Shown: in pieces, positions 1-52,680 of the stretch | How positions within the stretch are numbered: the first letter of the stretch is position 1 | Layout: every line of letters begins with the position of its first letter | Origin: Escherichia coli | Lineage (GTDB): Bacteria; Pseudomonadota; Gammaproteobacteria; Enterobacterales; Enterobacteriaceae | Reading direction: 5' to 3' (one strand) | Assembly: GCF_001677475.2 (NCBI RefSeq) | Contig: NZ_CP015229.1 | DNA length: 64,000 nt | Translations under genes and position numbers: made by a program | The notes under the pieces: generated by a model | The model's database searches: none | The model's input: the letters and a program-made list of their open reading frames with translations, nothing else | Told to the model about the DNA's origin: nothing

Positions 1-1393
1 CAGCCAGTGCACGTATAGCGGCGACAAAACAGGCCATCGGCGCAGTGGTGATCCCGGCACCAATTTGCCCGACTCCCGCTTGTTTGTGGGCGATACCCGT
101 ATTGATGACCGGTAAAATGCCGCGATCGGTAACTTTACGCGCATCAATCCCTGCTGCGGTGGGGGCAAAATTGAGGGCAGGAAGTGTAAATGCGGGGTTA
201 CCGCCGAGGGTGATTGCCTGCATCCGACGGCTGTTATTGGTGGCATCGGCAGGTGTGCCTCCCACAAATTTAACGATTGCCGGAGATGACGCCATCGCGA
301 AGCCACCTACACCAGCGGTTTCGGTAATTGCGCTATCGCCCAAGTCAGCAGCGGCGTCGTCAACGCCAAATCCAGGGAAGAACAGACCTTCAACTGCATT
401 GGCGGGAGCCTGGAACCAGCGATCGCCAGTACCGGAAAGCCGAATACCAAAATTCACCCCGTTACGCGCCATCACCGTAACCATTGAACTGAACGGTACA
501 TTGGCGGCGGCATCCATCATTGCTTTACAGGCAGCCATCGACAGATTGAGGAAGAAGTGATCGTTACCGGTGATAAATGCTACGACGCGCTGGATATGTT
601 CCTGTGGAAGAGAGCGGGCCAGCAATGCCGGGATCAGACGCTTAATCAGCAAACCGGTAGCGGCAGCATTGCGGTTATGAACTTCATCCCCCATATGTAG
701 CGCCTGCGCCATTAATGGCTTGAGTTCCAGCTCGCCGTGTTGTGCGATTGCTGCTTTCATTGCCGGAGCCAGTTCATCGCGCATCCAGGCCAGACGATTG
801 AGAACTTCGTCGTTATTGGCGCCAAAACGGAGAACCTTACCCAGACCTTCATTGAAATTACTAAAAGTACGATGACCGTTGGTTTTATTTTCCACCACCC
901 ATAACGGCATTGACGGGCTGATGATGCCTGCCATTGGTCCAACCGCGTGATAATGATGACAAGGGGCAAGGTCGATTTCGCCTGCGTTTATCTGGTTTTC
1001 TGCGTCTTGCTGGCTGGTGGCCCAACCTTCGTACAGCATGGCACCAATAATCGCCCCTTTTACCGGACCACACATCTCTTCCCAGGTAATCGGCGGGCCA
1101 GAGTGCAAAATACGTTTTTGTTCAGCCATTGCTGGAATGGCCTCTTTAGCGAGCATGACATCCACCAGCACGGGCTGTGCTTCGAGATAACGTGTCATGG
1201 CGATTTGGTTGGCATTTTCTACCAGTGGATGACGTAGCAACGATGCCAGATCCAATCCAGCGTCAATATCGCCTTGTGCTGGTGGCTGCCAGTTGAGTGC
1301 AATTGCGCTTCCCCCGGCATGTTGAATATTGTCAGCAAAACTGTGTAGTCCCGCGTTCACGACCTTCAAAGACTGATTAAATAAGGTATTCAT
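1..1393 (-). CDS. Putative YlbE/YahG-like protein (DUF1116 suggested by synteny), C-terminus beyond window start
   Basis: Hand translation of the minus strand from ATG at 1393-1391 (MNTLFNQSLKVVNAGLHSF...) stays open to position 1. Start overlaps the upstream stop as ATGA. Family assignment rests on position downstream of an fdrA-like gene, not on recognised motifs. Confidence 0.5.
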   Translation of the reverse strand, partial: MNTLFNQSLKVVNAGLHSFADNIQHAGGSAIALNWQPPAQGDIDAGLDLASLLRHPLVENANQIAMTRYLEAQPVLVDVMLAKEAIPAMAEQKRILHSGPPITWEEMCGPVKGAIIGAMLYEGWATSQQDAENQINAGEIDLAPCHHYHAVGPMAGIISPSMPLWVVENKTNGHRTFSNFNEGLGKVLRFGANNDEVLNRLAWMRDELAPAMKAAIAQHGELELKPLMAQALHMGDEVHNRNAAATGLLIKRLIPALLARSLPQEHIQRVVAFITGNDHFFLNLSMAACKAMMDAAANVPFSSMVTVMARNGVNFGIRLSGTGDRWFQAPANAVEGLFFPGFGVDDAAADLGDSAITETAGVGGFAMASSPAIVKFVGGTPADATNNSRRMQAITLGGNPAFTLPALNFAPTAAGIDARKVTDRGILPVINTGIAHKQAGVGQIGAGITTAPMACFVAAIRALA

Positions 1394-2949
1394 GCGTTTA
1401 GCCCCTTTTTCTGCAACTGAGTCTGTGCAACGGTGCTGGCCCATAGCGCCGCCTGTGCATTGCTGCTGGCGATGATGACCCCTGCATTTTGTAGTGCGCT
1501 TATCTGCTGGCTGCGTATTTGCGGATCAGCTTCCGTTCCGCAAACGTGCGCAATCAGCAACGGTGCGTTATTCATGTCGATGTGTGAAAGTTGGTCCAGT
1601 AATTCGCTGGCAGGCGTCGTGGAAGCGCCATAACCAAGTACCAGGTCGAATAACACGACGGCAGTGTGTGAGTCGTTGAGTTCGTTGAGCAGACGTTGAT
1701 TGCGCAGAGTCGGATCGATCATTGGATGCGGTTTGCCACGGGTGAAATCATCGTCGCCCATATCGATCAACGTGTGATCTTCGCTTTGCCAGATATTTGC
1801 CAGAGCACGATTACCCGCAACTGGCGTATTGGAAGCTGCGCTGAATCCCTTTTGTTGGCAGATAAGTTGCGCTTCGTAGCAGAAGGTTCCTCCGGCGAAA
1901 ACACCGCGTATCGCCTGGCGATGGGCTGGCAGGCGCTGGCAGGCGTTTTGTAACATTGTGAGATCGTCGCAGGGTACATCGGTTTCGACAGCCGGAAATG
2001 GCTGAGCATTCAGTAACGCCACAGCGATGTCGGCGGCGCTGGCAAGTGTGGTGGCGGCAGTGATATTGGGACGTGCCAGATCATGCGGATTCGCCCCGAG
2101 GAAATTCACCACCACGGGTTTTCCACAAGCCTCGGCGCGCTCCAGAATAGTCCGGGCAACGATCGGTGAAGGCGGTTTTGAAATAAGCACAATCACGCGA
2201 GTTTCATCGTCTTGCGCCAGCGCATCTAAAGCGAAGAGCATCGATATTCCACTAATCTCTTCACTGAGATCATGTCCGCCTGTTCCCAACGCCTGAGAAA
2301 TACCCGCTCCGAGCTGGTCGATTCGGCAAGTCACTTCCTGTAGCCCGGTGCCTGACGCGCCAATAACACCAATCGCTCCACGTTTCACCACATTGGCGAA
2401 GCCTAACGGAATGCCGTTAACGATGGCGGTTCCACAGTCAGGTCCCATTACGATGCGCTGACGTTCTCGGGCAAGTGTTTTGATGGATTTTTCCTGCGCG
2501 ATACTGACGTTATCGCTGAACATCATCACGTTCATTCCGAGGTTTAACGCTTTAATTGCTTCGGCGGCGGCGTAGTCTCCCGGTACAGAAATGAGTGCCA
2601 GGTTGGCTTCGGGTTCGGCTTCCAGTGCCATTTCCAGGCTGACCTTTTCCGGTGTTTTAATGCCACTACCCGTTTCATCATCGGGTTTGCTGGTCAGACG
2701 TTGCTGGGCCAGTACCAGTGCTTCATTGCAAATATCTTCTTCACCCATGACTGCAATCACTAAATCATTGGGACTGGCGTTGATTTCGTTACCCAGACCC
2801 ACATCGCGCAATTGTTCGAGATTATTGGGTGTTCCCATGACGACCGAAGCCTGTTGAATACCGGGCAATTTGCTGATTTGCGCGGAAATCTGCATCAGAG
2901 AAACCGAGTCCTGATAAAGATTGCTGAGAACTTTATGTTTAACTTTCAT
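1390..2949 (-). CDS. FdrA-like protein (succinyl-CoA synthetase alpha-like CoA-binding fold)
   Basis: 519 aa ORF; N-terminal YQDSVSLMQIS motif typical of FdrA/YahF; glycine-rich GVIGASGTG segment. Confidence 0.8.
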   Translation of the reverse strand: MKVKHKVLSNLYQDSVSLMQISAQISKLPGIQQASVVMGTPNNLEQLRDVGLGNEINASPNDLVIAVMGEEDICNEALVLAQQRLTSKPDDETGSGIKTPEKVSLEMALEAEPEANLALISVPGDYAAAEAIKALNLGMNVMMFSDNVSIAQEKSIKTLARERQRIVMGPDCGTAIVNGIPLGFANVVKRGAIGVIGASGTGLQEVTCRIDQLGAGISQALGTGGHDLSEEISGISMLFALDALAQDDETRVIVLISKPPSPIVARTILERAEACGKPVVVNFLGANPHDLARPNITAATTLASAADIAVALLNAQPFPAVETDVPCDDLTMLQNACQRLPAHRQAIRGVFAGGTFCYEAQLICQQKGFSAASNTPVAGNRALANIWQSEDHTLIDMGDDDFTRGKPHPMIDPTLRNQRLLNELNDSHTAVVLFDLVLGYGASTTPASELLDQLSHIDMNNAPLLIAHVCGTEADPQIRSQQISALQNAGVIIASSNAQAALWASTVAQTQLQKKGLNA

Positions 2950-3043
2950 GCTGTTACGCCTGTTTCATTCCGCCCGATAGTAAAATTCGGGCAAAGCATC
3001 CCCGTGTAGCGCCATAAATGAGCTACAGGAGAAAAGGTTGAAA

Positions 3044-3904
3044 TCAATTCATGGTGTTCAGGGTTCGAAAGCCATGCAGCATTCCTGCAAGGCAATCCAC
3101 TCCTGACGTTGCGCCAAATTGCATGACCTGTTCTGCACAGGATGCGATTGTCATTGCCGATGCGCCCCCAACCAGTTGTGCGAGTAACTGGCAAATCGGT
3201 TCTGAAAAATGCCCCCGAAGCGCACGCTCCAGATAATGACGACTGATGTCAGTGGTGTTGTGCGCATGTTGATCAATTGCCTGCTGCAACCGGTATTGAT
3301 GAGCGGCAAGTGGTGCAGGTAGTTGCCATAACCAGAGCGCTGCCAGATAGCCCAACAAATAGTCATCTCCATCGGGAGTTAAGCCTTTGCCAAAGCCGAT
3401 CAGTTGTGGCACCTGGCGTTCCAGCGCATCTGGATGTTCCATAATCTCTAATCCCTGGTGCGTGAGACTATCCGGCAGGTGCAATGTGCTTTGAACGTTA
3501 TGCTCCAGACAAAATAAAAGCCGTTGCGATGCCATCGTTGGGTAGTGCTGGAAAACCAAAGGGAACGCCTCAAGTGTCAGCCTTCCTCCCACAAATGACG
3601 GCTGCCAGAGCGTTGCGTTATCGAGAGCCACACAAAAGCGAGGTGTCTGCAGCAAGCCTGGGGTTAACTGAACGGGATCGGAATGGGCAATCTCTCTTCG
3701 CCAGTCCCAACGCTTAGGCAGCCAGACTCTGGCAGCATCAGGGAGATTCAGATACGTTTGCGCACACAACAGGGTGATGAATGTTCCCGCTTCTGAATAC
3801 AGATTTACCGCATGTTTAAAAGCACTGTGCAGACGTAAATCTTGCGTTTCATTCCACGGGAAAAGATATCCCAACGACGATGCGCAAAGCGTAACCTGTA
3901 CCAT
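3044..3904 (-). CDS. Putative YlbF/YahE-like protein (DUF2877 suggested)
   Basis: 286 aa ORF with a GKGLTPDGDD motif, sitting immediately upstream of the fdrA-like gene as in the fdrA-ylbE-ylbF and yahEFG paralogue sets. Confidence 0.5.
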   Translation of the reverse strand: MVQVTLCASSLGYLFPWNETQDLRLHSAFKHAVNLYSEAGTFITLLCAQTYLNLPDAARVWLPKRWDWRREIAHSDPVQLTPGLLQTPRFCVALDNATLWQPSFVGGRLTLEAFPLVFQHYPTMASQRLLFCLEHNVQSTLHLPDSLTHQGLEIMEHPDALERQVPQLIGFGKGLTPDGDDYLLGYLAALWLWQLPAPLAAHQYRLQQAIDQHAHNTTDISRHYLERALRGHFSEPICQLLAQLVGGASAMTIASCAEQVMQFGATSGVDCLAGMLHGFRTLNTMN

Positions 3905-3909
3905 CGGTG

Positions 3910-4578
3910 TTAGCCTTCCAGGCCTGCAATAATGGCTTTGGAATCAGTAACCCAACCGAAAATGGCACCTTGTGCTTTGATCATCTCCAGGGCGTATTTC
4001 TGGAATTCCGGGAAATAGGAGCCAACGCAATCTTCCGGGATGATGCACTCATAACCACGATCATTCGCTTCGCGCACGGTGGTGGTCACACAGACTTCCG
4101 TGGTTACTCCGCAAACAATCAGCGTTTTGATGCCGTGGTTTTGCAAAATCAGATGTAAGTCGGTTTGATAAAAAGCGCCTTTGCCGGGTTTATCAATCAC
4201 CGGTTCGCCTGCGACCGGGTACAGTTCAGGAATGATGTCATGACCTGCTTCACCTCTGACCAGAATGCGCCCCATCGGGCCTGCTTCACCAATAAAGGTT
4301 TTACCGCCGCGCGTCAGTTTGGCTGGTGGGCAGTCGCTTAAGTCTGCACGATGGCCTTCACGGGTATGAATAACCATAATTCCTTTTTGACGTGCGGCTG
4401 CCAGCACCTCTGTACATGGAGCGATAGCCGTGCGTACCAGTGAAACATCATTGCCCAGTGCCTCACCGAAGCCCCCTGCTTCGACAAAGTCACGCTGCAT
4501 GTCGATCATGACCAGTGCAGTTGTGCGCGGATCAAAAGGTAATTCAAAGGGTTGAGCCTGAAAAATGGATTGCGTCAT
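3910..4578 (-). CDS. Isochorismatase-family cysteine hydrolase (amidohydrolase-like)
   Basis: 222 aa ORF; MIDMQRDF aspartate motif near the N-terminus and LIVCGVTTEVCV cysteine motif; 5 nt from the next gene. Confidence 0.75.
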   Translation of the reverse strand: MTQSIFQAQPFELPFDPRTTALVMIDMQRDFVEAGGFGEALGNDVSLVRTAIAPCTEVLAAARQKGIMVIHTREGHRADLSDCPPAKLTRGGKTFIGEAGPMGRILVRGEAGHDIIPELYPVAGEPVIDKPGKGAFYQTDLHLILQNHGIKTLIVCGVTTEVCVTTTVREANDRGYECIIPEDCVGSYFPEFQKYALEMIKAQGAIFGWVTDSKAIIAGLEG

Positions 4579-4835
4579 GGTAAATCTCCTGTCTGATGTT
4601 TAAACGATCCAGTTGTTCTGAGAACGAGTATTCAGGAGAAAAGCGGCACAAAACAGGAAAAAAGTTTGCCGCACAGCAACGAAATTTTTGCATTCAGCAG
4701 GCGGCGTGATGACGAATGTGAAGGGGGTCAAATCGTGGCATACAGCAACAAAATTTTTGATGCTGTATGGTTTTGAGTTTAAAAAAATCGTTGAAATTGT
4801 GTGAGCTTAAGCACCTGAGTTAGCTGCTATGGTGG

Positions 4836-5645
4836 TTATTTTTTAACACCATACTGCTTAAACCACTCCAGCATACGCTGCCAGCCATCTTTTGCAGATG
4901 CGGCATGATAGCTCGGGCGATAATCAGCGTTGAATGCATGCCCGGCGTCCGGGTACACGATAATCTCTGCTTTCGCATTAGCAGCCCGCAGCGCCTGGCG
5001 CATGGTTTCAACGCTCTCCTGCGGAATGCTGTTATCCTGACCACCATATAAGCCGAGAACCGGCGCGTTAAGATCGGTTGCGATATCAACAGGTTGTTTC
5101 GGTGAATTCAGCGACTTATCGCCTGTCAGTTTGCCGTACCATGCCACCGCCGCTTTCAGTTGCGGGTTATGCGCAGCATACAGCCAGGTGATACGTCCAC
5201 CCCAGCAGAATCCGGTGATCATTAAACGATGAACATCGCCGCCGTTGCGGGAAGCCCAACTGGCGACATGATCGAGATCGGCCAGCACCTGCGAGTCAGG
5301 CACTTTTGCTACCAGACCGCTAAGCAACGTGGGGATATCGGCAAAATCATTCGGATCGCCTTCGCGGAAGTAAAGTTCAGGTGCGATAGCCAGATATCCC
5401 TCCAGCGCCAGACGGCGACAAATGTCGCGGATATGTTCATGCACGCCAAAAATTTCCTGCACTACAATGACCACTGGCAGTGGGCCATCGCTTTGCTTTG
5501 GTCTGGCATGGTAAGCAGGCATGTTATCCCCTTGTGAGGGGATAGAGGTGAAGCCCGCCGCAATCGCGTCGTCCGGGGTCTGAACGATGGTCGAAGCGAG
5601 AGGCGATGCAGCAGGTGCAAATCCAGATTGTTGTGTTGTTGCCAT
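4836..5645 (-). CDS. ysgA: Dienelactone hydrolase-family protein
   Basis: ORF 4836-5711; start placed at internal MATTQQSGF (about 270 aa); position upstream of udp matches K-12. Confidence 0.8.
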   Translation of the reverse strand: MATTQQSGFAPAASPLASTIVQTPDDAIAAGFTSIPSQGDNMPAYHARPKQSDGPLPVVIVVQEIFGVHEHIRDICRRLALEGYLAIAPELYFREGDPNDFADIPTLLSGLVAKVPDSQVLADLDHVASWASRNGGDVHRLMITGFCWGGRITWLYAAHNPQLKAAVAWYGKLTGDKSLNSPKQPVDIATDLNAPVLGLYGGQDNSIPQESVETMRQALRAANAKAEIIVYPDAGHAFNADYRPSYHAASAKDGWQRMLEWFKQYGVKK

Positions 5646-5765
5646 GGTATTCTCCGTACCCTTATAAAAATGTTGCGCAATGTTAACTATAGTCAGCATG
5701 CAACAAATCACATTGCCTGAATCGGCTCATCTTTTATGCAGTCCTGCAGAATGAAGAGTGATTTA

Positions 5766-5833
5766 TGTGATTTGCATCACTTTTGGTGGGTAAATTTATG
5801 CAACGCATTTGCGTCATGGTGATGAGTATCACG
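5766..5833 (+). promoter_or_regulatory. udp promoter region with two CRP-like sites about 52 bp apart
   Basis: TGTGAtttgcaTCACt at 5766-5781 and GTGAtgagtaTCAC at 5818-5833, upstream of udp. Confidence 0.6.
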
Positions 5834-5906
5834 AAAAAATGTTAAACCCTTCGGTAAAGTGTCTTTTTGCTTCTTCTGACTAAACCGATTCACAGAGGAG
5901 TTGTAT

Positions 5907-6668
5907 ATGTCCAAGTCTGATGTTTTTCATCTCGGCCTCACTAAAAACGATTTACAAGGGGCTACGCTTGCCATCGTCCCTGGCGACCCGGATCGTGTGG
6001 AAAAGATCGCCGCGCTGATGGATAAGCCGGTTAAGCTGGCATCTCACCGCGAATTCACCACCTGGCGTGCAGAGCTGGATGGTAAACCTGTTATCGTCTG
6101 CTCTACCGGTATCGGCGGCCCGTCTACCTCTATTGCTGTTGAAGAGCTGGCACAGCTGGGCATTCGCACCTTCCTGCGTATCGGTACAACGGGCGCTATT
6201 CAGCCGCATATTAATGTGGGTGATGTCCTGGTTACCACGGCGTCTGTCCGTCTGGATGGCGCGAGCCTGCACTTCGCACCGCTGGAATTCCCGGCTGTCG
6301 CTGATTTCGAATGTACGACTGCGCTGGTTGAGGCTGCGAAATCCATCGGCGCGACGACTCACGTTGGCGTGACGGCTTCTTCTGATACCTTCTACCCAGG
6401 TCAGGAACGTTACGATACTTACTCTGGTCGCGTAGTTCGTCACTTTAAAGGTTCTATGGAAGAGTGGCAGGCGATGGGCGTAATGAACTATGAAATGGAA
6501 TCTGCAACCCTGCTGACCATGTGTGCAAGTCAGGGTCTACGTGCCGGTATGGTAGCGGGTGTTATCGTTAACCGCACCCAGCAAGAGATCCCGAATGCTG
6601 AGACGATGAAACAAACTGAAAGCCAAGCGGTGAAAATCGTGGTGGAAGCGGCGCGTCGTCTGCTGTAA
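5907..6668 (+). CDS. udp: Uridine phosphorylase
   Basis: [36 protein letters not shown]-terminus; about 253 aa. Confidence 0.95.
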
Positions 6669-30019: not shown

Positions 30020-30547
30020 TTATCCGTTCTGCTTTTGCATCCACTCCACCACAAAATCAGCCAGCCCCTCAACATCATTAATATCCAGTAATGCGACATC
30101 AAGATTAAGCGGCACATCACTGGCTACAGCAATAACATGCCTGTCTATCACTAATTCTTCAGGTCGATGTCCGGCTCCATCGCGAAACAGCACAATCTTT
30201 GCGATCTCTTCATGCTTAAACCCTTCGACCAGAATCAAATCCAGCTTTGAGGTATCCATTCGACTTGCGAGAAACTGTAGATCCAGCTCTTCTTCGTCTG
30301 GTGTTTCCGTCATCAAGGCCCATCGTTGCTGGCTGGCAACGATGGTTTGTGCCGCGCCAGCCTTGCGCAGCTCATAGCTATCTTTGCCAGGCTTATCAAC
30401 ATCCATATCATGGTGCGTATGCTTAATCAGCCCTGGACGGATCCCTCTGGCGCATAATGCCGGGATCAGTTTTTTCAAAAGCGTAGTTTTTCCGGTACCA
30501 CTCCACGCGGCAAAGGCGAGTAACGGTATCATCGTTTTTCCTGCCAT
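30020..30547 (-). CDS. mobB: Molybdopterin-guanine dinucleotide biosynthesis adapter MobB
   Basis: P-loop GTGKTT, 175 aa. Confidence 0.9.
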
Positions 30548-31113
30548 CGGGCAAGCTCCTCTGGCGTATTCACGTTAACAAATGCATCTTTATGATCGCT
30601 GAAATCAACCGCATGACCGCCAGCCAGACGCATAAATGCCATTACCCGGCGTTCTCCTGTTTGCAGATATTCTAGTAATAAAGGCTCAATTGCGCGGTTT
30701 ACCAGAGCAATAGTCGGGTGATCGCGTTCACCGTCGTGGACCCACACGACAGGCGCATCTTTGCGCTGATGATTAAGCCGGGCGGCTAAATCATGGGGAA
30801 TGTAAGGCGTATCGCACGGGCAAAACAAAAACCACTCACCCGCTTCCTGCTGCATTACTGAAAGCATTCCTGCCAGAGGGCCTGGGTAATCCGCCAGTGA
30901 ATCTTCAATCACTTTCAGACCGCTTGCCTGATAAATTTCCTGATGACGATTAGCATTAACAACGACGTGAGAGAGCTGCGTCATAAGCGCGTCAGCGACA
31001 TGTTGCCATAATGGTTTGCCGTTTAATTCAAGCAATCCTTTATCTACGCCGCCCATTCGTCTGGCTTTACCGCCCGCCAGCACAACGCCTGTTATCGTCG
31101 TCATCAGATTCAC
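30529..31113 (-). CDS. mobA: Molybdenum cofactor guanylyltransferase MobA
   Basis: 194 aa; [11 protein letters not shown] motif; overlaps mobB by 19 nt. Confidence 0.95.
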
Positions 31114-31182
31114 CGATATCGCCTCTTTTATTGTGGGATTGACCCTGCTAACGTGTCTGTCTCAAGAGTAAGGAGCATCACT

Positions 31183-31452
31183 ATGAAATGTAAACGTCTG
31201 AATGAAGTTATTGAACTCCTCCAGCCAGCCTGGCAAAAAGAGCCAGACCTTAACCTGCTGCAATTTTTGCAGAAACTGGCGAAAGAGTCAGGTTTTGACG
31301 GCGAACTGGCGGATTTGACGGATGACATTCTGATCTATCACCTGAAAATGCGTGATTCCGCGAAAGATGCGGTGATCCCGGGTTTGCAGAAAGATTATGA
31401 AGAAGACTTCAAAACGGCGCTGTTACGCGCTCGCGGCGTAATTAAAGAGTAA
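31183..31452 (+). CDS. yihD: DUF1040 protein YihD
   Basis: Start at [18 protein letters not shown], 89 aa. Confidence 0.85.
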
Positions 31453-31528
31453 AAGCTTGTAAGCGGCGCCACCAAAATCATCGTGAAATGATATCCTTCA
31501 TCATTCGTAATGTTTTCCGGATGATGGG

Positions 31529-32515
31529 ATGAATAACAGCGCTTTTACTTTCCAGACACTACACCCGGATACCATCATGGACGCTCTGTTTGAGCAAGGG
31601 ATCCGGGTGGATTCCGGTCTTACCCCGCTTAACAGCTATGAAAACCGTGTCTATCAATTTCAGGACGAAGATCGTCGACGTTTTGTCGTCAAATTTTATC
31701 GCCCTGAACGTTGGACAGCCGATCAAATCCTCGAAGAACATCAATTTGCGTTGCAGCTGGTAAATGATGAAGTTCCGGTCGCAGCACCTGTGGCCTTTAA
31801 CGGTCAGACTTTATTGAATCATCAGGGATTTTATTTCGCTGTTTTTCCAAGCGTCGGTGGTCGCCAGTTCGAAGCTGATAATATCGATCAGATGGAAGCG
31901 GTTGGGCGTTATTTAGGGCGTATGCACCAGACGGGGCGCAAACAGCTTTTTATCCATCGCCCGACCATCGGTCTGAATGAATATCTCATTGAGCCACGCA
32001 AGCTGTTTGAGGACGCTACACTGATACCTTCCGGGTTGAAAGCGGCATTCCTGAAAGCGACAGATGAGCTGATCGCCGCCGTTACAGCACACTGGCGGGA
32101 AGATTTCACCGTTCTGCGGCTACATGGAGACTGCCACGCCGGGAATATTCTCTGGCGCGATGGTCCAATGTTTGTTGATCTGGATGATGCACGTAATGGT
32201 CCAGCTATTCAGGATTTGTGGATGTTGCTCAATGGCGATAAAGCCGAGCAGCGGATGCAACTGGAAACTATTATTGAAGCTTATGAAGAATTTAGCGAGT
32301 TCGACACCGCTGAAATCGGACTGATTGAACCTTTACGCGCCATGCGTTTGGTTTATTATCTTGCCTGGCTAATGCGGCGTTGGGCTGATCCCGCGTTCCC
32401 GAAAAATTTCCCGTGGTTAACCGGGGAAGATTACTGGCTGCGACAGACGGCGACTTTTATAGAACAGGCAAAAGTTATACAAGAACCCCCTTTGCAATTA
32501 AGACCAATGTATTAA
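31529..32515 (+). CDS. srkA: Stress-response Ser/Thr kinase SrkA (RdoA)
   Basis: 328 aa; HGDCHAGNILW kinase motif. Confidence 0.9.
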   Translation: MNNSAFTFQTLHPDTIMDALFEQGIRVDSGLTPLNSYENRVYQFQDEDRRRFVVKFYRPERWTADQILEEHQFALQLVNDEVPVAAPVAFNGQTLLNHQGFYFAVFPSVGGRQFEADNIDQMEAVGRYLGRMHQTGRKQLFIHRPTIGLNEYLIEPRKLFEDATLIPSGLKAAFLKATDELIAAVTAHWREDFTVLRLHGDCHAGNILWRDGPMFVDLDDARNGPAIQDLWMLLNGDKAEQRMQLETIIEAYEEFSEFDTAEIGLIEPLRAMRLVYYLAWLMRRWADPAFPKNFPWLTGEDYWLRQTATFIEQAKVIQEPPLQLRPMY

Positions 32516-32531
32516 TCGGAGAGAGTAGATC

Positions 32532-33158
32532 ATGAAAAAGATTTGGCTGGCGCTGGCTGGTTTAGTTTTAGCGTTTAGCGCATCGGCGGCGCAGTATGAA
32601 GATGGTAAACAGTACACTACCCTGGAAAAACCGGTAGCTGGCGCGCCGCAAGTGCTGGAGTTTTTCTCTTTCTTCTGCCCGCACTGCTATCAGTTTGAAG
32701 AAGTTCTGCATATTTCTGATAACGTGAAGAAAAAACTGCCGGAAGGCGTGAAGATGACTAAATACCACGTCAACTTCATGGGTGGTGACCTGGGCAAAGA
32801 TCTGACTCAGGCATGGGCAGTGGCGATGGCACTGGGCGTGGAAGACAAAGTCACTGTTCCGCTGTTTGAAGGCGTACAGAAAACCCAGACCATTCGTTCA
32901 GCATCTGATATCCGCGATGTATTTATCAACGCAGGTATTAAAGGTGAAGAGTACGACGCGGCGTGGAACAGCTTCGTGGTGAAATCTCTGGTCGCTCAGC
33001 AGGAAAAAGCCGCAGCTGACGTGCAATTGCGTGGTGTTCCGGCGATGTTTGTTAACGGTAAATATCAGCTGAATCCGCAGGGTATGGATACCAGCAATAT
33101 GGATGTTTTTGTTCAGCAGTATGCTGATACTGTGAAATATCTGTCCGAGAAAAAATAA
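32532..33158 (+). CDS. dsbA: Periplasmic thiol:disulfide oxidoreductase DsbA
   Basis: Signal peptide and CPHC active site ([13 protein letters not shown]), 208 aa. Confidence 0.97.
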
Positions 33159-33176
33159 TTCAATGTAAATTACATA

Positions 33177-33205
33177 AAGCCCGTGAATATTCACGGGCTT
33201 TTTTT
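33177..33205 (+). terminator. Intrinsic terminator after dsbA
   Basis: agcccgtgaatattcacgggct hairpin plus T run. Confidence 0.8.
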
Positions 33206-33312
33206 ATTATTTAATAAATATAAATACATTCTGATAATGCATCCTGCCGCTGGACATTATTTCAGCATAAGTGGATATTCAAAGTTTTGCTGTTTTATCA
33301 GGGAATATTTAT

Positions 33313-34743
33313 ATGATACGTAAGTCAGCTACAGGTGTCATTGTTGCGTTAGCCGTTATCTGGGGTGGTGGCACATGGTACACAGGTACGCAAATTCAGC
33401 CAGGTGTCGAAAAGTTTATTAAAGATTTTAACGATGCTAAAAAGAAAGGTGAACATTCCTACGCGATGACATTAAGTTATAAAAATTTTGACAAAGGTTT
33501 TTTTAATTCCCATTTTCAGATGCAAATTATATTTGATAACGGTGCACCCGATCTCAATATCAAACCAGGCCAGAAAGTTGCATTTGATGTGGATGTTGAG
33601 CACGGTCCGTTACCCATCACAATGTTAATGCGTGGTAATGTCATCCCCGCACTGGTAGCGGCAAAAGTGAACTTAGTGAACAATGAACTGACACAACCGC
33701 TATTTATCGCCGCGAAAAATAAATCGCCCGTGGAAGCGACATTGCGATTCGCGTTTGGTGGCTCATTCTCTACGACATTAGATGTTGCCCCTGCAGAGTA
33801 TGGAAAGTTTTCTTTTGGTGAGGGCCAGTTTACTTTTAATGGTGATGGTAGTTCATTGTCTAACCTGGATATTGAAGGCAAAGTCGAAGATATTGTTCTG
33901 CAATTATCGCCATTGAACAAAGTAACGGCAAAAAGTTTTACCATTGATTCTCTGGCTCGATTAGAAGAAAAGAAATTTCCGGTTGGTGAAAGCGAGTCGA
34001 AATTTAATCAGATTAACATTATCAATCACGGGGAAGACGTTGCCCAAATCGATGCTTTCGTTGCAAAAACCAGGCTGGATCGCGTTAAAGACAAAGATTA
34101 TATCAATGTCAATCTGACCTACGAACTTGATAAGTTAACAAAAGGGAATCAGCAACTCGGTAGTGGTGAGTGGTCATTGATTGCTGAATCTATTGATCCC
34201 TCAGCGGTGCGCCAATTTATCATCCAGTATAACATTGCGATGCAGAAGCAGCTTGCTGCACACCCTGAGTTAGCAAACGATGAAGTTGCTCTGCAAGAAG
34301 TGAATGCTGCATTGTTCAAAGAGTATTTACCGTTATTACAAAAAAGTGAGCCGACCATTAAACAACCGGTAAGATGGAAGAATGCACTCGGCGAACTAAA
34401 TACCAATCTGGATATCAGTATTGCCGACCCAGCCAAATCCTCATCATCCACAAACAAAGATATTAAATCGCTTAATTTTGATGTGAAGTTACCGCTTAAT
34501 GTCGTCACAGAAACCGCAAAACAGCTTAATTTATCTGAAGGAATGGATGCGGAAAAAGCGCAAAAGCAGGCTGATAAACAAATCAGCGGGATGATGACAT
34601 TAGGTCAGATGTTTCAGTTAATCACGATTGACAACAATACCGCCTCGCTGCAGCTGCGTTATACACCGGGTAAAGTTGTTTTTAACGGACAGGAGATGAG
34701 CGAAGAAGAATTTATGTCTCGTGCCGGACGTTTTGTTCATTAA
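33313..34743 (+). CDS. yihF: DUF945 family protein YihF
   Basis: Start at MIRKSATGVIVALAVIWGGG (476 aa), signal-anchor N-terminus. Confidence 0.85.
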   Translation: MIRKSATGVIVALAVIWGGGTWYTGTQIQPGVEKFIKDFNDAKKKGEHSYAMTLSYKNFDKGFFNSHFQMQIIFDNGAPDLNIKPGQKVAFDVDVEHGPLPITMLMRGNVIPALVAAKVNLVNNELTQPLFIAAKNKSPVEATLRFAFGGSFSTTLDVAPAEYGKFSFGEGQFTFNGDGSSLSNLDIEGKVEDIVLQLSPLNKVTAKSFTIDSLARLEEKKFPVGESESKFNQINIINHGEDVAQIDAFVAKTRLDRVKDKDYINVNLTYELDKLTKGNQQLGSGEWSLIAESIDPSAVRQFIIQYNIAMQKQLAAHPELANDEVALQEVNAALFKEYLPLLQKSEPTIKQPVRWKNALGELNTNLDISIADPAKSSSSTNKDIKSLNFDVKLPLNVVTETAKQLNLSEGMDAEKAQKQADKQISGMMTLGQMFQLITIDNNTASLQLRYTPGKVVFNGQEMSEEEFMSRAGRFVH

Positions 34744-34752
34744 AATACTCAC

Positions 34753-34778
34753 TCGCCTCTGCTCATTCAGAGGCGAGT
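34753..34778. terminator. Hairpin between convergent yihF and yihG
   Basis: ctcgcctctg...cagaggcgag 10-bp stem. Confidence 0.6.
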
Positions 34779-34783
34779 AAAAC

Positions 34784-35716
34784 TTACTTATTCTGACGCT
34801 GTGATGACATGAGAGACGTCAGAAGTCGGTCCTTTTCCTGCCACAGTGAGTTCAGCCATTGCTGAAAATGGCGCTTAAAGCTTTTGTCATTGATGTAATC
34901 GCCATGTAACTCATCGGCAATAGGCTGTAAATCCACATGTACGACAATCCGCGTCAGTTTACCGCTTAACATATCGAAGAACGGCTGACGGTTATTGTCC
35001 GGATAACACAGCGTAACATTAAGCAGTTTATCGAATTGTTTACCCAGTACATTTAGCGCCATCGCAATGCCTGCCGCCTTTGGTGGCAACAAGTTTTGAA
35101 AAGTGGAGTGGGTTTGCTGATGTTTTTCTTGCGTGAAACGGGAGCCTTCAACGAAATTGACAATGGTGGTGGGATGCAGGCGAAACTTTTCACAAGAACG
35201 CCGAGTGGTTTCAACATCTTTACCACGTCGCTCCGGATGACGTAATAAATAAGCGCGGGAATAACGCTTCATAAACGGCATATCCAGCGCCCAGCACGCC
35301 AGGCCAAGAAATGGCACCCAGGCCAGTTGTTGCTTGAGGAAATATTTATTCATCGGAATGTGCTTACGAAACAGCACGCACAGTACGACAATATCTGCCC
35401 AACTACGGTGGTTACAAATAAGCAGATACCAGTTTTTCTTACTTAACCCTTCCAGCCCGTGAACTTCCCATTGCAGGTGTGGGTTCAGATGCAGTAATAC
35501 CGCCAGACCTTCACACCAGCAATACATCATAAAATCACAAAACCGCGAAACCTTTCGCCAAATGACTGGCACAGGTAGCAATAGTTTTACAATCCCGGCA
35601 ATGATGATCGGGACGGAACAAAAAATAGTGACCAAAATGGTCAATACGATACTCAGCAAAAGGGTTATCGCAGCGAGTATTCTCGTCATAATGAATTTAT
35701 TCAAAAGGTTAGCCAT
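34784..35716 (-). CDS. yihG: PlsC-family acyltransferase YihG
   Basis: Start at [10 protein letters not shown] (310 aa); ORF track extends to 35740. Confidence 0.85.
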
Positions 35717-35806
35717 AGACAGTACGCTAAAGAAGCGCAAGGCGCAGATTTTAGCAGAAAACGCCCCAAATAACGGATGATCCTTAAGGAGAAAAATAAT
35801 TCATAT

Positions 35807-35956
35807 CTATCCACATTAGAAAAAATCCCATTATCTCAATTATTAGGGAAGGCTTTATTTTTAACTGCATGAAAAACAAAGACAAACATCATACTGTAAA
35901 AAGCATGATAATAAATTAAAAGCGATGTAAATAATTTATGCACAAAGTTATCCACA
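35807..35956. promoter_or_regulatory. polA upstream region with DnaA boxes
   Basis: ctatccaca at 35807-35815 and perfect ttatccaca at 35948-35956. Confidence 0.7.
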
Positions 35957-36079
35957 TGACGATTTGCGAGCGATCCAGAAGATCTACAAAAGATTTTCAC
36001 GAAAAGCGGTGAAAAACTCATGTTTTCATCCTGTCTGTGGCATCCTTTACTCATAATCTGATAAACAGGCACGGACATT

Positions 36080-49389: not shown

Positions 49390-49555
49390 ACCTGTCGTGA
49401 GCGCACACCAATGCGAGTATCTCCCTTATAAGTCTGTGATTACGTCAATAGAGAGCTTTGTCACAATTATCTGCAAAGTCATACGCCGTTAATTGCTTTC
49501 TTTTTTGGCGTAAGCGTAAGATGCTTCATCTGGTTTAAACCAAAAGGATTAAACA

Positions 49556-50266
49556 ATGGCGGAGAATCAATCCACCGTAGAAAATGCAAAAGAGAAACTG
49601 GATCGGTGGTTGAAAGATGGCATCACCACGCCGGGTGGAAAACTCCCTTCAGAAAGAGAGCTGGGAGAACTGCTGGGCATTAAACGTATGACGCTGCGCC
49701 AGGCGTTGTTGAACCTCGAGGCAGAATCCAAAATCTTCCGTAAAGATCGTAAGGGGTGGTTCGTGACCCAGCCGCGATTTAATTACAGTCCGGAGCTGTC
49801 GGCGAGCTTTCAGCGGGCCGCAATTGAGCAAGGGCGAGAGCCTTCCTGGGGGTTTACCGAGAAAAACCGTACCAGCGATATTCCCGAGACGCTCGCGCCA
49901 CTGATTGCAGTGACGCCATCAACTGAACTCTATCGCATCACCGGCTGGGGGGCGCTGGAAGGACATAAAGTTTTCTATCACGAAACATATATTAATCCTG
50001 AAGTTGCTCCGGGTTTTATTGAACAACTTGAAAACCACTCATTTTCTGCAGTCTGGGAAAAGTGCTACCAAAAAGAGACGGTAGTAAAAAAATTGATTTT
50101 CAAACCCGTCAGAATGCCGGGCGATATCAGCAAGTATCTTGGCGGTTCTGCGGGTATGCCTGCGATCTTAATTGAAAAGCATCGCGCCGACCAGCAAGGC
50201 AATATTGTCCAGATAGATATTGAATATTGGCGATTTGAGGCCGTAGACCTCATCATTAATCTGTAG
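49556..50266 (+). CDS. yihL: Putative GntR-type transcriptional regulator YihL
   Basis: 236 aa; N-terminal HTH (LPSERELGELLGIKRMTLRQAL). Confidence 0.8.
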   Translation: MAENQSTVENAKEKLDRWLKDGITTPGGKLPSERELGELLGIKRMTLRQALLNLEAESKIFRKDRKGWFVTQPRFNYSPELSASFQRAAIEQGREPSWGFTEKNRTSDIPETLAPLIAVTPSTELYRITGWGALEGHKVFYHETYINPEVAPGFIEQLENHSFSAVWEKCYQKETVVKKLIFKPVRMPGDISKYLGGSAGMPAILIEKHRADQQGNIVQIDIEYWRFEAVDLIINL

Positions 50267-50273
50267 GTGTTTT

Positions 50274-51254: not shown

Positions 51255-51355
51255 TAAGTTTTAACTCATACGCAGTTAATAAAACCATTCCATATGAATG
51301 GTCGGTATCTTATTGCCTTTAAAACAGTGATTTTAAAAATCGCTTAGGGGATGTT

Positions 51356-52621: not shown

Positions 52622-52626
52622 TTAAT

Positions 52627-52649
52627 GGCCGGATGTGCTTAATCCGGCC
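52627..52649. terminator. Hairpin between convergent yihN and the DeoR regulator gene
   Basis: ggccgga tgtgcttaa tccggcc, 7-bp stem. Confidence 0.5.
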
Positions 52650-52680
52650 AACGAAAACCGTATCAACCGAAGTTTCAATT

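What the first reader, a model, noticed from the sequence alone, without database searches (positions are those of the whole stretch)
3910..4578. First gene of the island is an isochorismatase-fold hydrolase with a likely Asp-Lys-Cys triad
The protein carries the N-terminal DMQRDF aspartate motif and a VCGVTTEVCV cysteine motif, as in enzymes of this fold that hydrolyse small amides (ureidoacrylate, biuret, N-carbamoylsarcosine, nicotinamide). Its position at the head of the operon makes it the probable substrate-defining enzyme.
Basis: partly seen in the sequence, partly recalled or inferred. Interest (0 to 1): 0.45.

Follow-up and report, generated by a model that had tools for sequence, protein, structure and literature searches.

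The report
Likely triuret hydrolase in ExPEC island
The gene is real and encodes a small cysteine amidase whose active site matches the known triuret hydrolase TrtA at all 15 positions checked. It heads a mobile gene cassette, common in extraintestinal pathogenic E. coli, that probably converts a urate-oxidation product into ammonia and ATP.

Summary
A 222-aa ORF lies on the minus strand (4578->3910). It is an isochorismatase-like cysteine hydrolase (Pfam 7e-48) with triad D26/K130/C163. Both quoted motifs are present, and the catalytic Cys is the second one in VCGVTTEVCV.

Its closest solved relative is TrtA, the triuret hydrolase (PDB 6XIX, 59% identity), ahead of biuret hydrolase BiuH (52-53%) and far ahead of RutB, CSHase and PncA. 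All 15 catalytic and specificity positions defined for TrtA are identical to TrtA, and five differ from every BiuH compared. It scores 279 bits on NCBI's BiuH model (cutoff 370), much as characterised TrtA does (256).

The gene is APECO1_2632 of the known 16-kb metE-ysgA "tkt1" island of B2 ExPEC. It is the first gene of a cassette: hydrolase, AllH-like, AllF-like, AllG-like, carbamate kinase, free-standing allophanate-hydrolase C-domain, NCS1 permease, LysR.

That linkage holds in 58 of 62 species loci. The cassette also sits on 82 conjugative plasmids. Relatives at 69-71% identity instead sit next to BiuH, AtzF or AtzE.

Inferred, not shown: triuret is cleaved to 1-carboxybiuret, then degraded phosphorolytically to carbamoyl phosphate and ATP rather than by BiuH/AtzF. 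I rate it a new variant of a known kind, of moderate interest.

The parts
3910..4578 (-). trtA-like gene: a 222-aa isochorismatase-like cysteine hydrolase (APECO1_2632 homologue). Triad D26/K130/C163, cis-peptide pair V158-T159, TrtA-type specificity residues F37, N43, A135, E161, Y188, Q203, I206.
4586..4590 (-). Shine-Dalgarno AGGAG, 7 nt upstream of the ATG
   Evidence: read from the sequence
4579..4835 (-). 257-nt intergenic leader/promoter region between ysgA and the hydrolase gene. No consensus sigma-70 site on this strand and no Rfam element.
4739..4769 (.). Imperfect palindrome CATACAGCAACAAAA-T-TTTTGATGCTGTATG (15-nt arms, 93% complementary), about 185 nt upstream of the ATG. Candidate operator, possibly for the cassette's LysR regulator.
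   Evidence: related motif at the same distance in Citrobacter, Buttiauxella and Rahnella loci
4673..4690 (.). Second copy of the half-site (ACAGCAACGAAATTTTTG), about 112 nt upstream of the ATG
   Evidence: conserved at -110 to -132 in Serratia, Edwardsiella, Citrobacter and Buttiauxella loci
3044..3904 (-). AllH-like (DUF2877) gene, 286 aa, starting 5 nt after the hydrolase stop
   Evidence: Pfam AllH PF11392, 7e-27
1390..2949 (-). AllF/FdrA-like gene, 519 aa
   Evidence: (NF004760 FdrA, 495 bits > cutoff 433)
1..1393 (-). AllG/YlbE-like (DUF1116) gene, overlapping AllF-like by 4 nt. Its 3' end is cut off by the window edge (about 31 nt missing).
   Evidence: colinear with L001 11969-13393; Pfam AllG in orthologous loci
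4846..4847 (.). Right junction of the metE-ysgA ('tkt1') island. E. coli K-12 homology starts at 4847, a few codons inside the 3' end of ysgA (ysgA = 4836-5645, minus).

Best explanation
The ORF encodes an isochorismatase-like (IHL) cysteine amidohydrolase of the TrtA (triuret hydrolase) type. SHOWN: the fold; the triad D26-K130-C163; identity to TrtA at all 15 catalytic, substrate-contact and second-shell positions; exclusion from the BiuH clade; and a conserved position as first gene of a cassette. The cassette order is hydrolase, AllH-like, AllF-like, AllG-like, carbamate kinase, free-standing allophanate-hydrolase C-domain (AH_C), NCS1 permease, LysR regulator. INFERRED, step 1: C163 attacks the terminal carbamoyl carbon of triuret (H2N-CO-NH-CO-NH-CO-NH2), or of a very close acyl-ureide. 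This releases NH3 and, after hydrolysis of the thioester, 1-carboxybiuret, as in TrtA. INFERRED, step 2 (weaker): the cassette has no BiuH or AtzF. I propose that the AllFGH-like enzyme, a paralogue of oxamate carbamoyltransferase (oxalurate + Pi -> oxamate + carbamoyl-P), phosphorolyses the ureido end of 1-carboxybiuret and/or allophanate (or biuret). Carbamate kinase would then convert the carbamoyl phosphate to ATP + NH3 + CO2. The AH_C protein would handle an N-carboxy intermediate or act as a scaffold. The NCS1 permease would import the substrate, and the AllS/PunR-like LysR protein would regulate the operon.
For: Fold and triad. Closest solved structure is TrtA 6XIX (E 4.6e-80, 58.7% identity), against BiuH at 51.6-53.1% and RutB at E 6e-28. 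The TrtA paper (PMC7948467) defines D24, F29, E72, K129, K132, V157-T158, C162 and Q202, plus the TrtA-versus-BiuH discriminators F35, N41, A134, E160, Y187 and I205. The window protein reads DFFNEKKAVTECYQI, identical to TrtA, whereas the BiuHs read DFYYEKK(S/A)ITDCTQV. BiuH NCBIfam model: true BiuHs 422-426 bits, cutoff 370, TrtA 256, window protein 279. The BiuH clade has 100% bootstrap and excludes the window protein. Relatives at 69-71% identity to the query, with the same 15-residue signature, sit beside triuret/carboxybiuret/allophanate enzymes: BiuH with a Urt-type ABC transporter (L077), BiuH with AtzF (L081), and AtzF with an AtzE-family 1-carboxybiuret amidohydrolase (L067). Linkage to AllF/AllG holds in 58 of 62 species-level loci, to carbamate kinase in 56 and to AH_C in 56, across Proteobacteria, Mycolicibacterium and Chloroflexi. 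AllFGH is an experimentally shown acyl-urea phosphorylase (PMC11326118). The regulator is closest to the purine-related PunR and AllS. Purifying selection: 28 of 29 nucleotide differences are synonymous.
Against: There are no enzymology or growth data for this protein or cassette. Identity to the one characterised TrtA is only 59%. NJ bootstrap for monophyly with TrtA is 55% when rooted on RutB. The TrtA paper itself shows that specificity depends on subtle positioning of Q202, so residue identity is strong but not proof. The defining genomic partners of known TrtA (BiuH, AtzF) are absent here. The substrate of the AllFGH-like enzyme is unknown, and the role of AH_C is not explained by simple phosphorolysis. 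The AllH-like gene is missing in several lineages. An NCS1 'cytosine permease'-type transporter might point to a ring compound. The one paper that saw biuH/trtA next to allFGHK read them as two separate pathways (PMC12625717).
Confidence: 0.6

Rival explanations
1. It is an amidase for a different small acyl-ureide or diamide whose product is the true substrate of the AllFGH-like transcarbamoylase. One example is oxaluramide -> oxalurate + NH3, followed by oxalurate + Pi -> oxamate + carbamoyl-P. Another urate or pyrimidine oxidation product is also possible.
For: The downstream enzymes are paralogues of oxamate carbamoyltransferase and catabolic carbamate kinase (PMC11326118). The classical triuret partners BiuH and AtzF are missing. 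The permease is of the NCS1 family and the regulator is AllS/PunR-like. Oxaluramide and similar compounds were not among the substrates tested on TrtA.
Against: All 15 pocket and second-shell residues equal TrtA, an enzyme reported as 'ultraspecific'. Close relatives sit next to BiuH, AtzE and AtzF, which act on products of triuret. This route gives no role to the strongly conserved AH_C protein.
Confidence: 0.2
2. It is a biuret hydrolase (BiuH): biuret -> allophanate + NH3. Some automatic annotations of homologues say this ('biuret amidohydrolase' in JGI records).
For: Best NCBIfam model is BiuH (E 2e-83). It is 52-53% identical to two crystallised BiuHs. JGI names for homologues agree. Allophanate would be a plausible oxalurate-like substrate for the AllFGH-like enzyme.
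Against: The score of 279 is below the curated cutoff of 370, whereas real BiuHs score 422-426. Five discriminating residues are TrtA-type, not BiuH-type, and a sixth (A135) also matches TrtA. The protein lies outside the 100%-supported BiuH clade. TrtA with the same residues has about 1e-5 relative activity on biuret.
Confidence: 0.08
3. It is a RutB-like ureidoacrylate/peroxyureidoacrylate amidohydrolase in a pyrimidine-nitrogen salvage module. The BEN2908 genome paper suggested this for the same island (GR29).
For: About 32% identity to RutB and a CodB-like permease in the cassette (PMC12928451).
Against: The RutB model scores 109 bits against a cutoff of 378. RutB is 50 orders of magnitude weaker than TrtA in the PDB search. 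There are no RutA, C, D, E or F homologues in the cassette.
Confidence: 0.04
4. It is a true isochorismatase (EntB/PhzD-like) or a nicotinamidase/pyrazinamidase.
For: Only the Pfam family name and legacy annotations ('putative isochorismatase hydrolase', 'nicotinamidase-related amidase').
Against: It has the nucleophilic Cys and the Asp-Lys-Cys triad of the amidase branch. It has no aryl-carrier domain or siderophore context. The PncA model scores 48 bits against a cutoff of 174, over the C-terminal part only.
Confidence: 0.01

Closest known systems
TrtA, triuret hydrolase of Herbaspirillum sp. BH-1 (PDB 6XIX/6XJE/6XJ4; Tassoulas, Elias & Wackett 2021, PMC7948467)
   Same: Same IHL fold and similar length (222 vs 223 aa). 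58.7% identity. Identical catalytic triad, cis-peptide pair, substrate-contact residues (E72, K132, Q202 equivalents) and all six TrtA-versus-BiuH discriminating residues.
   Different: The genomic partners differ. Known TrtA is clustered with BiuH, AtzF and sometimes TrtB. Here there are none of these, but an AllFGH-like transcarbamoylase, carbamate kinase, a stand-alone AH_C and an NCS1 permease. The host range also differs: enteric and marine Proteobacteria, ExPEC islands and plasmids, rather than mainly plant-associated bacteria. Activity is untested.
BiuH, biuret hydrolase (Rhizobium leguminosarum 6AZO; Rhodococcus sp. Mel 6XJM)
   Same: Same subfamily and same triad, 52-53% identity, and best NCBIfam hit.
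   Different: Below the family cutoff (279 vs 370). F/N/E/Y/I at the discriminating positions instead of Y/Y/D/T/V. Outside the BiuH clade.
AllFGH oxamate (oxamic) transcarbamoylase plus AllK carbamate kinase of the E. coli anaerobic allantoin pathway (PMC11326118, PMC9843812)
   Same: The three genes downstream of the hydrolase belong to the AllH, AllF/FdrA and AllG/YlbE families and are followed by a carbamate kinase. The logic is that of an ATP-yielding phosphorolysis of an N-acylurea.
   Different: They are paralogues, not orthologues: about 40% identity to FdrA, 46% to YahG and 47% to YqeA according to PMC12928451. They are linked to an IHL amidase and an AH_C protein instead of AllB/C/D/E. 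The substrate is unknown.
Allophanate hydrolase AtzF/AH (PDB 4GYR, 4ISS) and the AtzE route for 1-carboxybiuret
   Same: The cassette's 129-aa protein is homologous to the AH C-terminal domain (residues ~497-619 of 4GYR). Relatives of the hydrolase sit next to full AtzF and AtzE-family genes.
   Different: The amidase-signature domain that does the chemistry in AtzF and AtzE is absent from the cassette. Only the C-domain is kept, as a free-standing protein.
RutB ureidoacrylate amidohydrolase (PDB 8BKD)
   Same: IHL fold, triad, and action on a ureido compound.
   Different: Distant: E 6e-28, 109 bits against a cutoff of 378. No Rut partners.

Membership tests
Isochorismatase-like hydrolase (IHL) superfamily, cysteine-hydrolase branch | Pfam PF00857 domain covering the protein | tested here: met
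   E=7e-48, residues 20-213 against model positions 1-173 of 175
Isochorismatase-like hydrolase (IHL) superfamily, cysteine-hydrolase branch | Asp-Lys-Cys catalytic triad at the aligned positions | tested here: met
   D26, K130 and C163 align with TrtA D24/K129/C162 and with the BiuH triad
Isochorismatase-like hydrolase (IHL) superfamily, cysteine-hydrolase branch | Conserved cis-peptide pair before the catalytic Cys (V157-T158 in TrtA) | tested here: inconclusive
   The residues V158-T159 are conserved. The cis conformation itself cannot be read from sequence.
TrtA (triuret hydrolase) | Substrate-contact residues D24, F29, E72, K132, Q202 | tested here: met
   D26, F31, E74, K133 and Q203 are identical (residue roles from PMC7948467)
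TrtA (triuret hydrolase) | TrtA-versus-BiuH discriminating residues F35, N41, A134, E160, Y187, I205 | tested here: met
   F37, N43, A135, E161, Y188 and I206 are all TrtA-type. 70 of 77 cassette-linked homologues are identical, and 7 carry A->S, a change that is neutral in TrtA.
TrtA (triuret hydrolase) | Closer to characterised TrtA than to BiuH, and outside the BiuH clade | tested here: met
   58.7% vs 51.6-53.1% identity. PDB E-values 4.6e-80 vs 1e-68. BiuH clade bootstrap is 100% and excludes it.
TrtA (triuret hydrolase) | Monophyly with characterised TrtA | tested here: inconclusive
   NJ bootstrap is 55% when rooted with RutB, and the inner branching is unresolved
TrtA (triuret hydrolase) | Genomic clustering with biuH and atzF (how TrtA was discovered) | tested here: not met
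   No BiuH or AtzF in the E. coli island or in 58 of 62 related loci. This context is present only in more distant relatives: L077, L081 and L067.
TrtA (triuret hydrolase) | Specific hydrolysis of triuret to 1-carboxybiuret + NH3 | not testable with these tools
   Needs an enzyme assay
BiuH (biuret hydrolase, NCBIfam NF050097) | Score above the curated equivalog cutoff (370 bits) | tested here: not met
   279.2 bits. Controls: BiuH 422-426, TrtA 256.
BiuH (biuret hydrolase, NCBIfam NF050097) | BiuH consensus residues Y, Y, D, T, V at the discriminating positions | tested here: not met
   The window protein has F, N, E, Y, I
RutB (TIGR03614) | Score above cutoff, and a Rut operon context | tested here: not met
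   108.7 bits against 377.95. No rutA or rutC-F neighbours.
EntB-type isochorismatase | No nucleophilic Cys; aryl-carrier domain and/or siderophore or phenazine context | tested here: not met
   The Cys is present. The protein is a single domain of 222 aa. Its neighbours are AllH/F/G-like genes and ysgA.
AllFGH/AllK-type carbamoyl-phosphate-yielding ureide module (for the downstream genes) | AllH, AllF and AllG family genes plus carbamate kinase in one operon | tested here: met
   Pfam AllH 7e-27. FdrA model 495 bits > 433. Pfam AllG in orthologous loci. arcC TIGR00746 366.5 bits > 358.25.
AllFGH/AllK-type carbamoyl-phosphate-yielding ureide module (for the downstream genes) | Oxalurate as substrate | not testable with these tools
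   The proteins are only about 40-47% identical to the K-12 paralogues (PMC12928451). Specificity determinants are unknown.

The most novel reading that the evidence does not exclude
The cassette encodes a previously undescribed, ATP-yielding phosphorolytic route for polyuret catabolism. TrtA-type hydrolysis of triuret gives 1-carboxybiuret. An AllFGH-like carbamoyltransferase then strips its carbamoyl units as carbamoyl phosphate (via allophanate). Carbamate kinase turns these into ATP + NH3 + CO2, replacing the hydrolytic BiuH/AtzF or AtzE/AtzF routes. The cassette is carried on the B2-ExPEC metE-ysgA island and on ColV-type conjugative plasmids. It would let urease-negative E. coli use triuret, which arises when peroxynitrite or peroxide oxidises urate and has been detected in human urine. 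This would provide nitrogen and energy in urine, inflamed tissue or uricotelic bird hosts.
Probability: 0.35. Interest if true: 0.75.

Novelty: new variant of a known kind. Interest (0 to 1): 0.55.

Why it matters
The metE-ysgA 'tkt1' island has been known since 2012 as one of the genomic islands most strongly associated with B2 ExPEC (UPEC, NMEC, APEC). Eight of its genes have never been given a function. The only published guess in the library searched is 'RutB-like, pyrimidine nitrogen' (PMC3349570, PMC12928451).

This analysis gives the first gene a specific, testable substrate: triuret, a product of urate oxidation found in human urine. It also shows that the hydrolase is coupled to a carbamoyl-phosphate/ATP-generating module in 58 of 62 species-level loci and on conjugative virulence-type plasmids.

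If confirmed, three things follow. It would add a third, energy-conserving way to finish triuret/biuret/cyanuric-acid nitrogen mineralisation. It would extend the substrate range of the newly discovered AllFGH class of transcarbamoylases. It would link a host oxidative-stress metabolite to ExPEC fitness. It would also correct widespread mis-annotation ('biuret amidohydrolase', 'nicotinamidase-related amidase', 'isochorismatase', and 'Glu-tRNA amidotransferase' for PDB 5C5Z).

Tried and rejected
(1) The plus-strand reading of 3910-4578 is full of stops. The gene is on the minus strand.

(2) A riboswitch in the 257-nt leader was considered, because guanidine/ykkC riboswitches control urea-carboxylase and allophanate-hydrolase genes. 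The Rfam scan of 1-6000 at E<=1 found only a chance sRNA hit at 19.8 bits. Rejected.

(3) The consensus sigma-70 and terminator scan of 2900-6000 found fewer sites than shuffles, and none usable on the minus strand upstream of the gene. It was uninformative.

(4) TrtB (carboxybiuret decarboxylase) as the identity of the 129-aa protein was rejected. TrtB is treed with AtzH and HpxZ in the supplement of PMC12625717. The cassette protein is the AH C-domain family.

(5) Rooted NJ bootstrap to prove monophyly with TrtA gave only 55%. A first attempt timed out.

(6) Literature searches for triuret with carbamate kinase, for the APEC O1 locus tags, and for N-carboxycarbamate gave nothing beyond the papers cited. 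One broad triuret/ExPEC search was uninformative. Aukema et al. 2020 (PMC6952224) is not held.

(7) The low-GC stretches of the window (32-36 kb, 50-52 kb) were checked as possible further islands. They are E. coli chromosomal genes also found in other strains: the first stretch in nearly all genomes, the second in most (yihF/dsbA/polA; yihL-N).

(8) No structure prediction was run. At 59% identity to a crystal structure it would add nothing decisive.
Full report
**1. The observation**

The interval 3910-4578 is an intact ORF, but on the minus strand. The plus-strand translation is broken by stops. The minus strand gives a 222-aa protein starting at the ATG at 4578, preceded by AGGAG 7 nt upstream.

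The protein contains ...VMIDMQRDF... (D26-F31) and ...LIVCGVTTEVCV... Pfam assigns one Isochorismatase domain (PF00857, E=7e-48, residues 20-213).

Compared with the same gene in E. coli AF39, 28 of 29 nucleotide differences are synonymous. The gene is therefore real, expressed-looking and under purifying selection.

**2. Where it is**

The window is an Escherichia chromosome segment: ysgA, udp, rmuC, ubiE, ubiJ, ubiB, tatABCD and onward. The core part is 98.6-98.7% identical to E. coli K-12 and ATCC 8739.

K-12 homology begins only at 4847, a few codons inside the 3' end of ysgA. Everything to the left belongs to the known 16-kb metE-ysgA island. That is the 'tkt1 genomic island' of APEC O1, called GR29 in strain BEN2908. 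It is strongly associated with phylogroup-B2 ExPEC (PMC3349570; PMC12928451).

The gene is the homologue of APECO1_2632, 'putative isochorismatase hydrolase'. A stretch covering at least 80% of window 1-6000 is present in 1497 of 5426 complete E. coli genomes.

In E. coli AF39 the minus-strand gene order is as follows:
- cysteine hydrolase
- AllH-family protein (DUF2877)
- FdrA/AllF-like protein
- YlbE/AllG-like protein (DUF1116)
- carbamate kinase
- 129-aa 'allophanate hydrolase-related' protein
- 'cytosine permease' (NCS1 family)
- LysR regulator

A separate RpiR/tkt1/ptsG-like/hxlB module and then metE follow. The window contains the first three genes and most of the fourth. 'First gene of the island' is thus correct for the operon and for the ysgA-proximal edge, but the island runs off the window.

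**3. What the protein is**

The ranking against solved structures is:

| Structure | E-value |
|---|---|
| TrtA triuret hydrolase, 6XIX/6XJ4 | 4.6e-80 |
| BiuH, Rhodococcus 6XJM | 8e-69 |
| BiuH, Rhizobium 6AZO | 1.6e-68 |
| RutB | 5.6e-28 |
| Pyrazinamidase 1ILW | 3e-16 |
| N-carbamoylsarcosine amidase 1NBA | 2.4e-10 |

In a MAFFT alignment the query is 58.7% identical to TrtA and 51.6-53.1% identical to the two BiuHs. TrtA itself is 46.7-49.8% identical to BiuH.

The TrtA paper (PMC7948467) defines several groups of residues:
- the triad D24/K129/C162
- the cis-peptide pair V157-T158
- the ligand contacts E72, K132 and Q202 (Q202 comes from the other subunit), with F29 closing on the substrate by van der Waals contact
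- six positions that separate TrtA from BiuH consensus: F35, N41, A134, E160, Y187 and I205

Mutation of four of the six positions (F35Y, N41Y, Y187T, E160D) lowered triuret activity, A134S was neutral, and no result is reported for I205.

At these 15 positions the window protein reads D F F N E K K A V T E C Y Q I, identical to TrtA.

NCBI's curated BiuH model behaves consistently:

| Protein | Bits (cutoff 370) |
|---|---|
| True BiuHs | 422-426 |
| Characterised TrtA | 256 |
| TrtA-likes adjacent to BiuH | 268-270 |
| Window protein | 279 |

In an NJ bootstrap rooted on E. coli RutB, the BiuH clade has 100% support and excludes the window protein. Monophyly of everything else with TrtA gets only 55%, and the inner order is unresolved.

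The conclusion is that this is an IHL cysteine amidase of the TrtA type, and not BiuH, RutB, PncA or an isochorismatase.

**4. Context across genomes**

Homologues of 79-88% identity occur in Enterobacterales, Vibrionaceae, Shewanella, Pasteurellaceae, Burkholderiales, Dyella and Psychrobacter.

Pfam-annotated contigs from Caballeronia, Photobacterium and Psychrobacter show the same gene order: Isochorismatase, AllH, AllF, AllG, AA_kinase, AH_C, Transp_cyt_pur, with or without LysR.

A scan of one genome per species found 316 stretches encoding relatives. I analysed the best 80, at 99-67% identity. Among the 62 loci with at least 7 kb of flank on both sides, the following lie within 9 kb of the hydrolase:

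| Partner | Loci of 62 |
|---|---|
| AllF-like | 58 |
| AllG-like | 58 |
| Carbamate kinase | 56 |
| AH_C | 56 |
| AllH-like | 46 |
| NCS1 permease | 46 |
| LysR | 40 |

These loci include Mycolicibacterium, Chloroflexi and alphaproteobacterial MAGs.

The exceptions are informative. All three carry the same 15-residue signature.
- L077 (69% identity to the query) has a genuine BiuH (73% to Rhizobium BiuH) and a UrtABC-type transporter next to it.
- L081 (71%) has BiuH (79%) and a full-length AtzF (839 bits).
- L067 (71%) is flanked by AtzF (802 bits) and an AtzE-family amidohydrolase (727 bits). AtzE is the enzyme that deaminates 1-carboxybiuret, the product of TrtA.

Three alternative downstream modules are therefore attached to the same hydrolase type: BiuH+AtzF, AtzE+AtzF, and AllF/G(/H)+carbamate kinase+AH_C. 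The first two are known to consume triuret-derived intermediates.

The cassette alone, without the tkt1 module, also lies on 82 conjugative plasmids of E. coli and Klebsiella at about 94% identity. The one I inspected is IncFIB/IncFIC. The 12 listed records include isolates from turkey, chicken, pig and human urine, blood, sputum and faeces. It is a self-contained mobile unit.

**5. Mechanism**

Shown: family, triad, pocket identity to TrtA, operon position and the conserved linkage.

Inferred, step 1. C163, activated by D26 and K130, attacks the terminal carbamoyl carbon of triuret, releasing NH3. Hydrolysis of the thioester gives 1-carboxybiuret, as demonstrated for TrtA by 13C-NMR. I put about 0.6-0.7 on triuret being the physiological substrate.

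Inferred, step 2. E. coli AllFGH is an N-acylurea phosphorylase (oxalurate + Pi -> oxamate + carbamoyl-P). With AllK it is the only way urease-negative enterics recover ureido nitrogen, and it yields ATP (PMC11326118; PMC9843812).

1-Carboxybiuret (-OOC-NH-CO-NH-CO-NH2) and allophanate (-OOC-NH-CO-NH2) are carboxylated N-acylureas like oxalurate (-OOC-CO-NH-CO-NH2). This comparison rests on my own chemical reasoning. I therefore propose that the AllF/G/H-like enzyme removes carbamoyl units from 1-carboxybiuret and/or allophanate as carbamoyl phosphate. Carbamate kinase then makes ATP + NH3 + CO2.

An alternative is decarboxylation to biuret, perhaps by AH_C, followed by biuret + Pi -> urea + carbamoyl-P. 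I give about 0.4-0.45 to a phosphorolytic continuation of some kind.

The role of AH_C is unexplained. In AtzF/AH this domain has been proposed to act on N-carboxycarbamate, or to serve as a scaffold. That is from memory of Fan et al. 2013 and Balotra et al. 2015 and was not checked here.

The regulator's best models are PunR (286 bits) and AllS (214 bits), both purine-related and both below cutoff. The permease is only distantly CodB-like (146 bits against a cutoff of 326).

**6. Comparison with what is known**

As a protein it works like TrtA and most probably is one. It fails one defining feature of the family as published, clustering with biuH and atzF, and its activity is untested.

A 2025 metagenomic paper noted biuH and putative trtA collocated with allFGHK, and sometimes codB, in comammox and archaeal ammonia oxidisers. 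It interpreted these as two adjacent pathways, triuret/biuret plus oxalurate (PMC12625717).

In the library searched, no paper links triuret with carbamate kinase other than that one. The E. coli genes appear only in the 2012 island paper and the 2026 BEN2908 paper, which guessed 'RutB-like pyrimidine nitrogen acquisition'.

The hydrolase is thus a new member of a known family. The cassette is a new variant of known ureide-degradation logic.

**7. Verdict**

Interest is moderate at 0.55. A routine-looking annotation turns into a specific, cheaply testable hypothesis for a long-unexplained ExPEC-associated island and for the substrate range of AllFGH-type enzymes. All functional steps remain inference from sequence and context.

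Noticed in passing
window 4739-4769 and 4673-4690: An imperfect 31-bp palindrome (CATACAGCAACAAAA-T-TTTTGATGCTGTATG) sits about 185 nt upstream of the hydrolase ATG. A direct copy of its half-site sits about 112 nt upstream. Related motifs occur at the same distances in Serratia, Citrobacter, Edwardsiella, Buttiauxella, Budvicia and Rahnella loci, but not in Vibrionaceae or Burkholderiales loci. It is probably an operator pair for the cassette's LysR regulator.
   Followed up: partly
window 4846/4847 (3' end of ysgA, 4836-5645 minus): The island junction lies inside the last codons of ysgA. K-12 homology starts at 4847, so island-bearing strains have a different ysgA C-terminus (...YGVKK*) from K-12.
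   Followed up: partly
L001 10614-11003 (E. coli AF39; left of the window): The cassette's 129-aa AH_C protein is 100% identical to PDB entry 5C5Z, deposited as 'Glutamyl-tRNA amidotransferase'. That name looks wrong: the protein is homologous only to the C-terminal, non-amidase domain of allophanate hydrolase (4GYR residues 497-619).
   Followed up: partly
L090 (plasmid NZ_CP059908.1, 5398-13576) and 81 other PLSDB plasmids: The eight-gene cassette without the tkt1 module is carried on 82 plasmids, all typed conjugative, at about 94% identity (78 E. coli, 4 Klebsiella). The listed records include isolates from turkey, chicken, pig and human urine, blood and sputum. On the inspected IncFIB/IncFIC plasmid it lies near bacteriocin-immunity and iron-ABC-transport genes.
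   Followed up: partly
loci L009, L015, L042, L043, L047, L055, L060, L068-L073, L078, L080, L083: The AllH-like gene is by far the least conserved cassette member (25-60% identity against 70-87% for AllG-like). It is undetectable, or there is no room for it, in several lineages. For example, in Mycolicibacterium the AllF-like gene starts about 15 nt after the hydrolase. In E. coli AllFGH all three subunits were reported as the enzyme.
   Followed up: no
L001 8382-9287 (LysR of the cassette): The regulator's best family matches are PunR (286 bits, cutoff 345) and AllS (214 bits, cutoff 372), both regulators of purine-related genes. This hints that the inducer is a purine-derived compound.
   Followed up: no
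window 1390-4578 vs L001: Divergence within the island is mosaic. The hydrolase gene is 95.7% identical in DNA to E. coli AF39 but differs at only 1 amino acid. The AllF-like gene is 98.8% identical in DNA but differs at 7 amino acids, and the AllH-like gene is 97.2% identical with 9 amino-acid differences. This suggests recombination between cassette alleles and different constraint on each gene.
   Followed up: no
L010 (CACSKA010000007.1, 'Chryseobacterium sp. 18061'): A contig labelled Chryseobacterium carries the complete cassette at 86% identity. Its hydrolase groups with Buttiauxella in the tree. It is probably a contaminating or mislabelled enterobacterial contig.
   Followed up: no
window 30500-37000 and 49500-53000: The two lowest-GC stretches of the window (0.42-0.45) are not islands. 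They are chromosomal genes found in other E. coli (yihF, srkA, dsbA, yihG, polA; yihL, yihM, yihN). The first stretch is at most 98.7% identical to any of 5426 complete E. coli genomes. The source strain is therefore somewhat apart from the sequenced majority there.
   Followed up: yes
L067 8134-13986 (Gammaproteobacteria MAG): A TrtA-type hydrolase lies between a full AtzF and an AtzE-family amidohydrolase. This arrangement implies triuret -> 1-carboxybiuret -> AtzE route without BiuH. I did not find this combination described in the papers read.
   Followed up: partly
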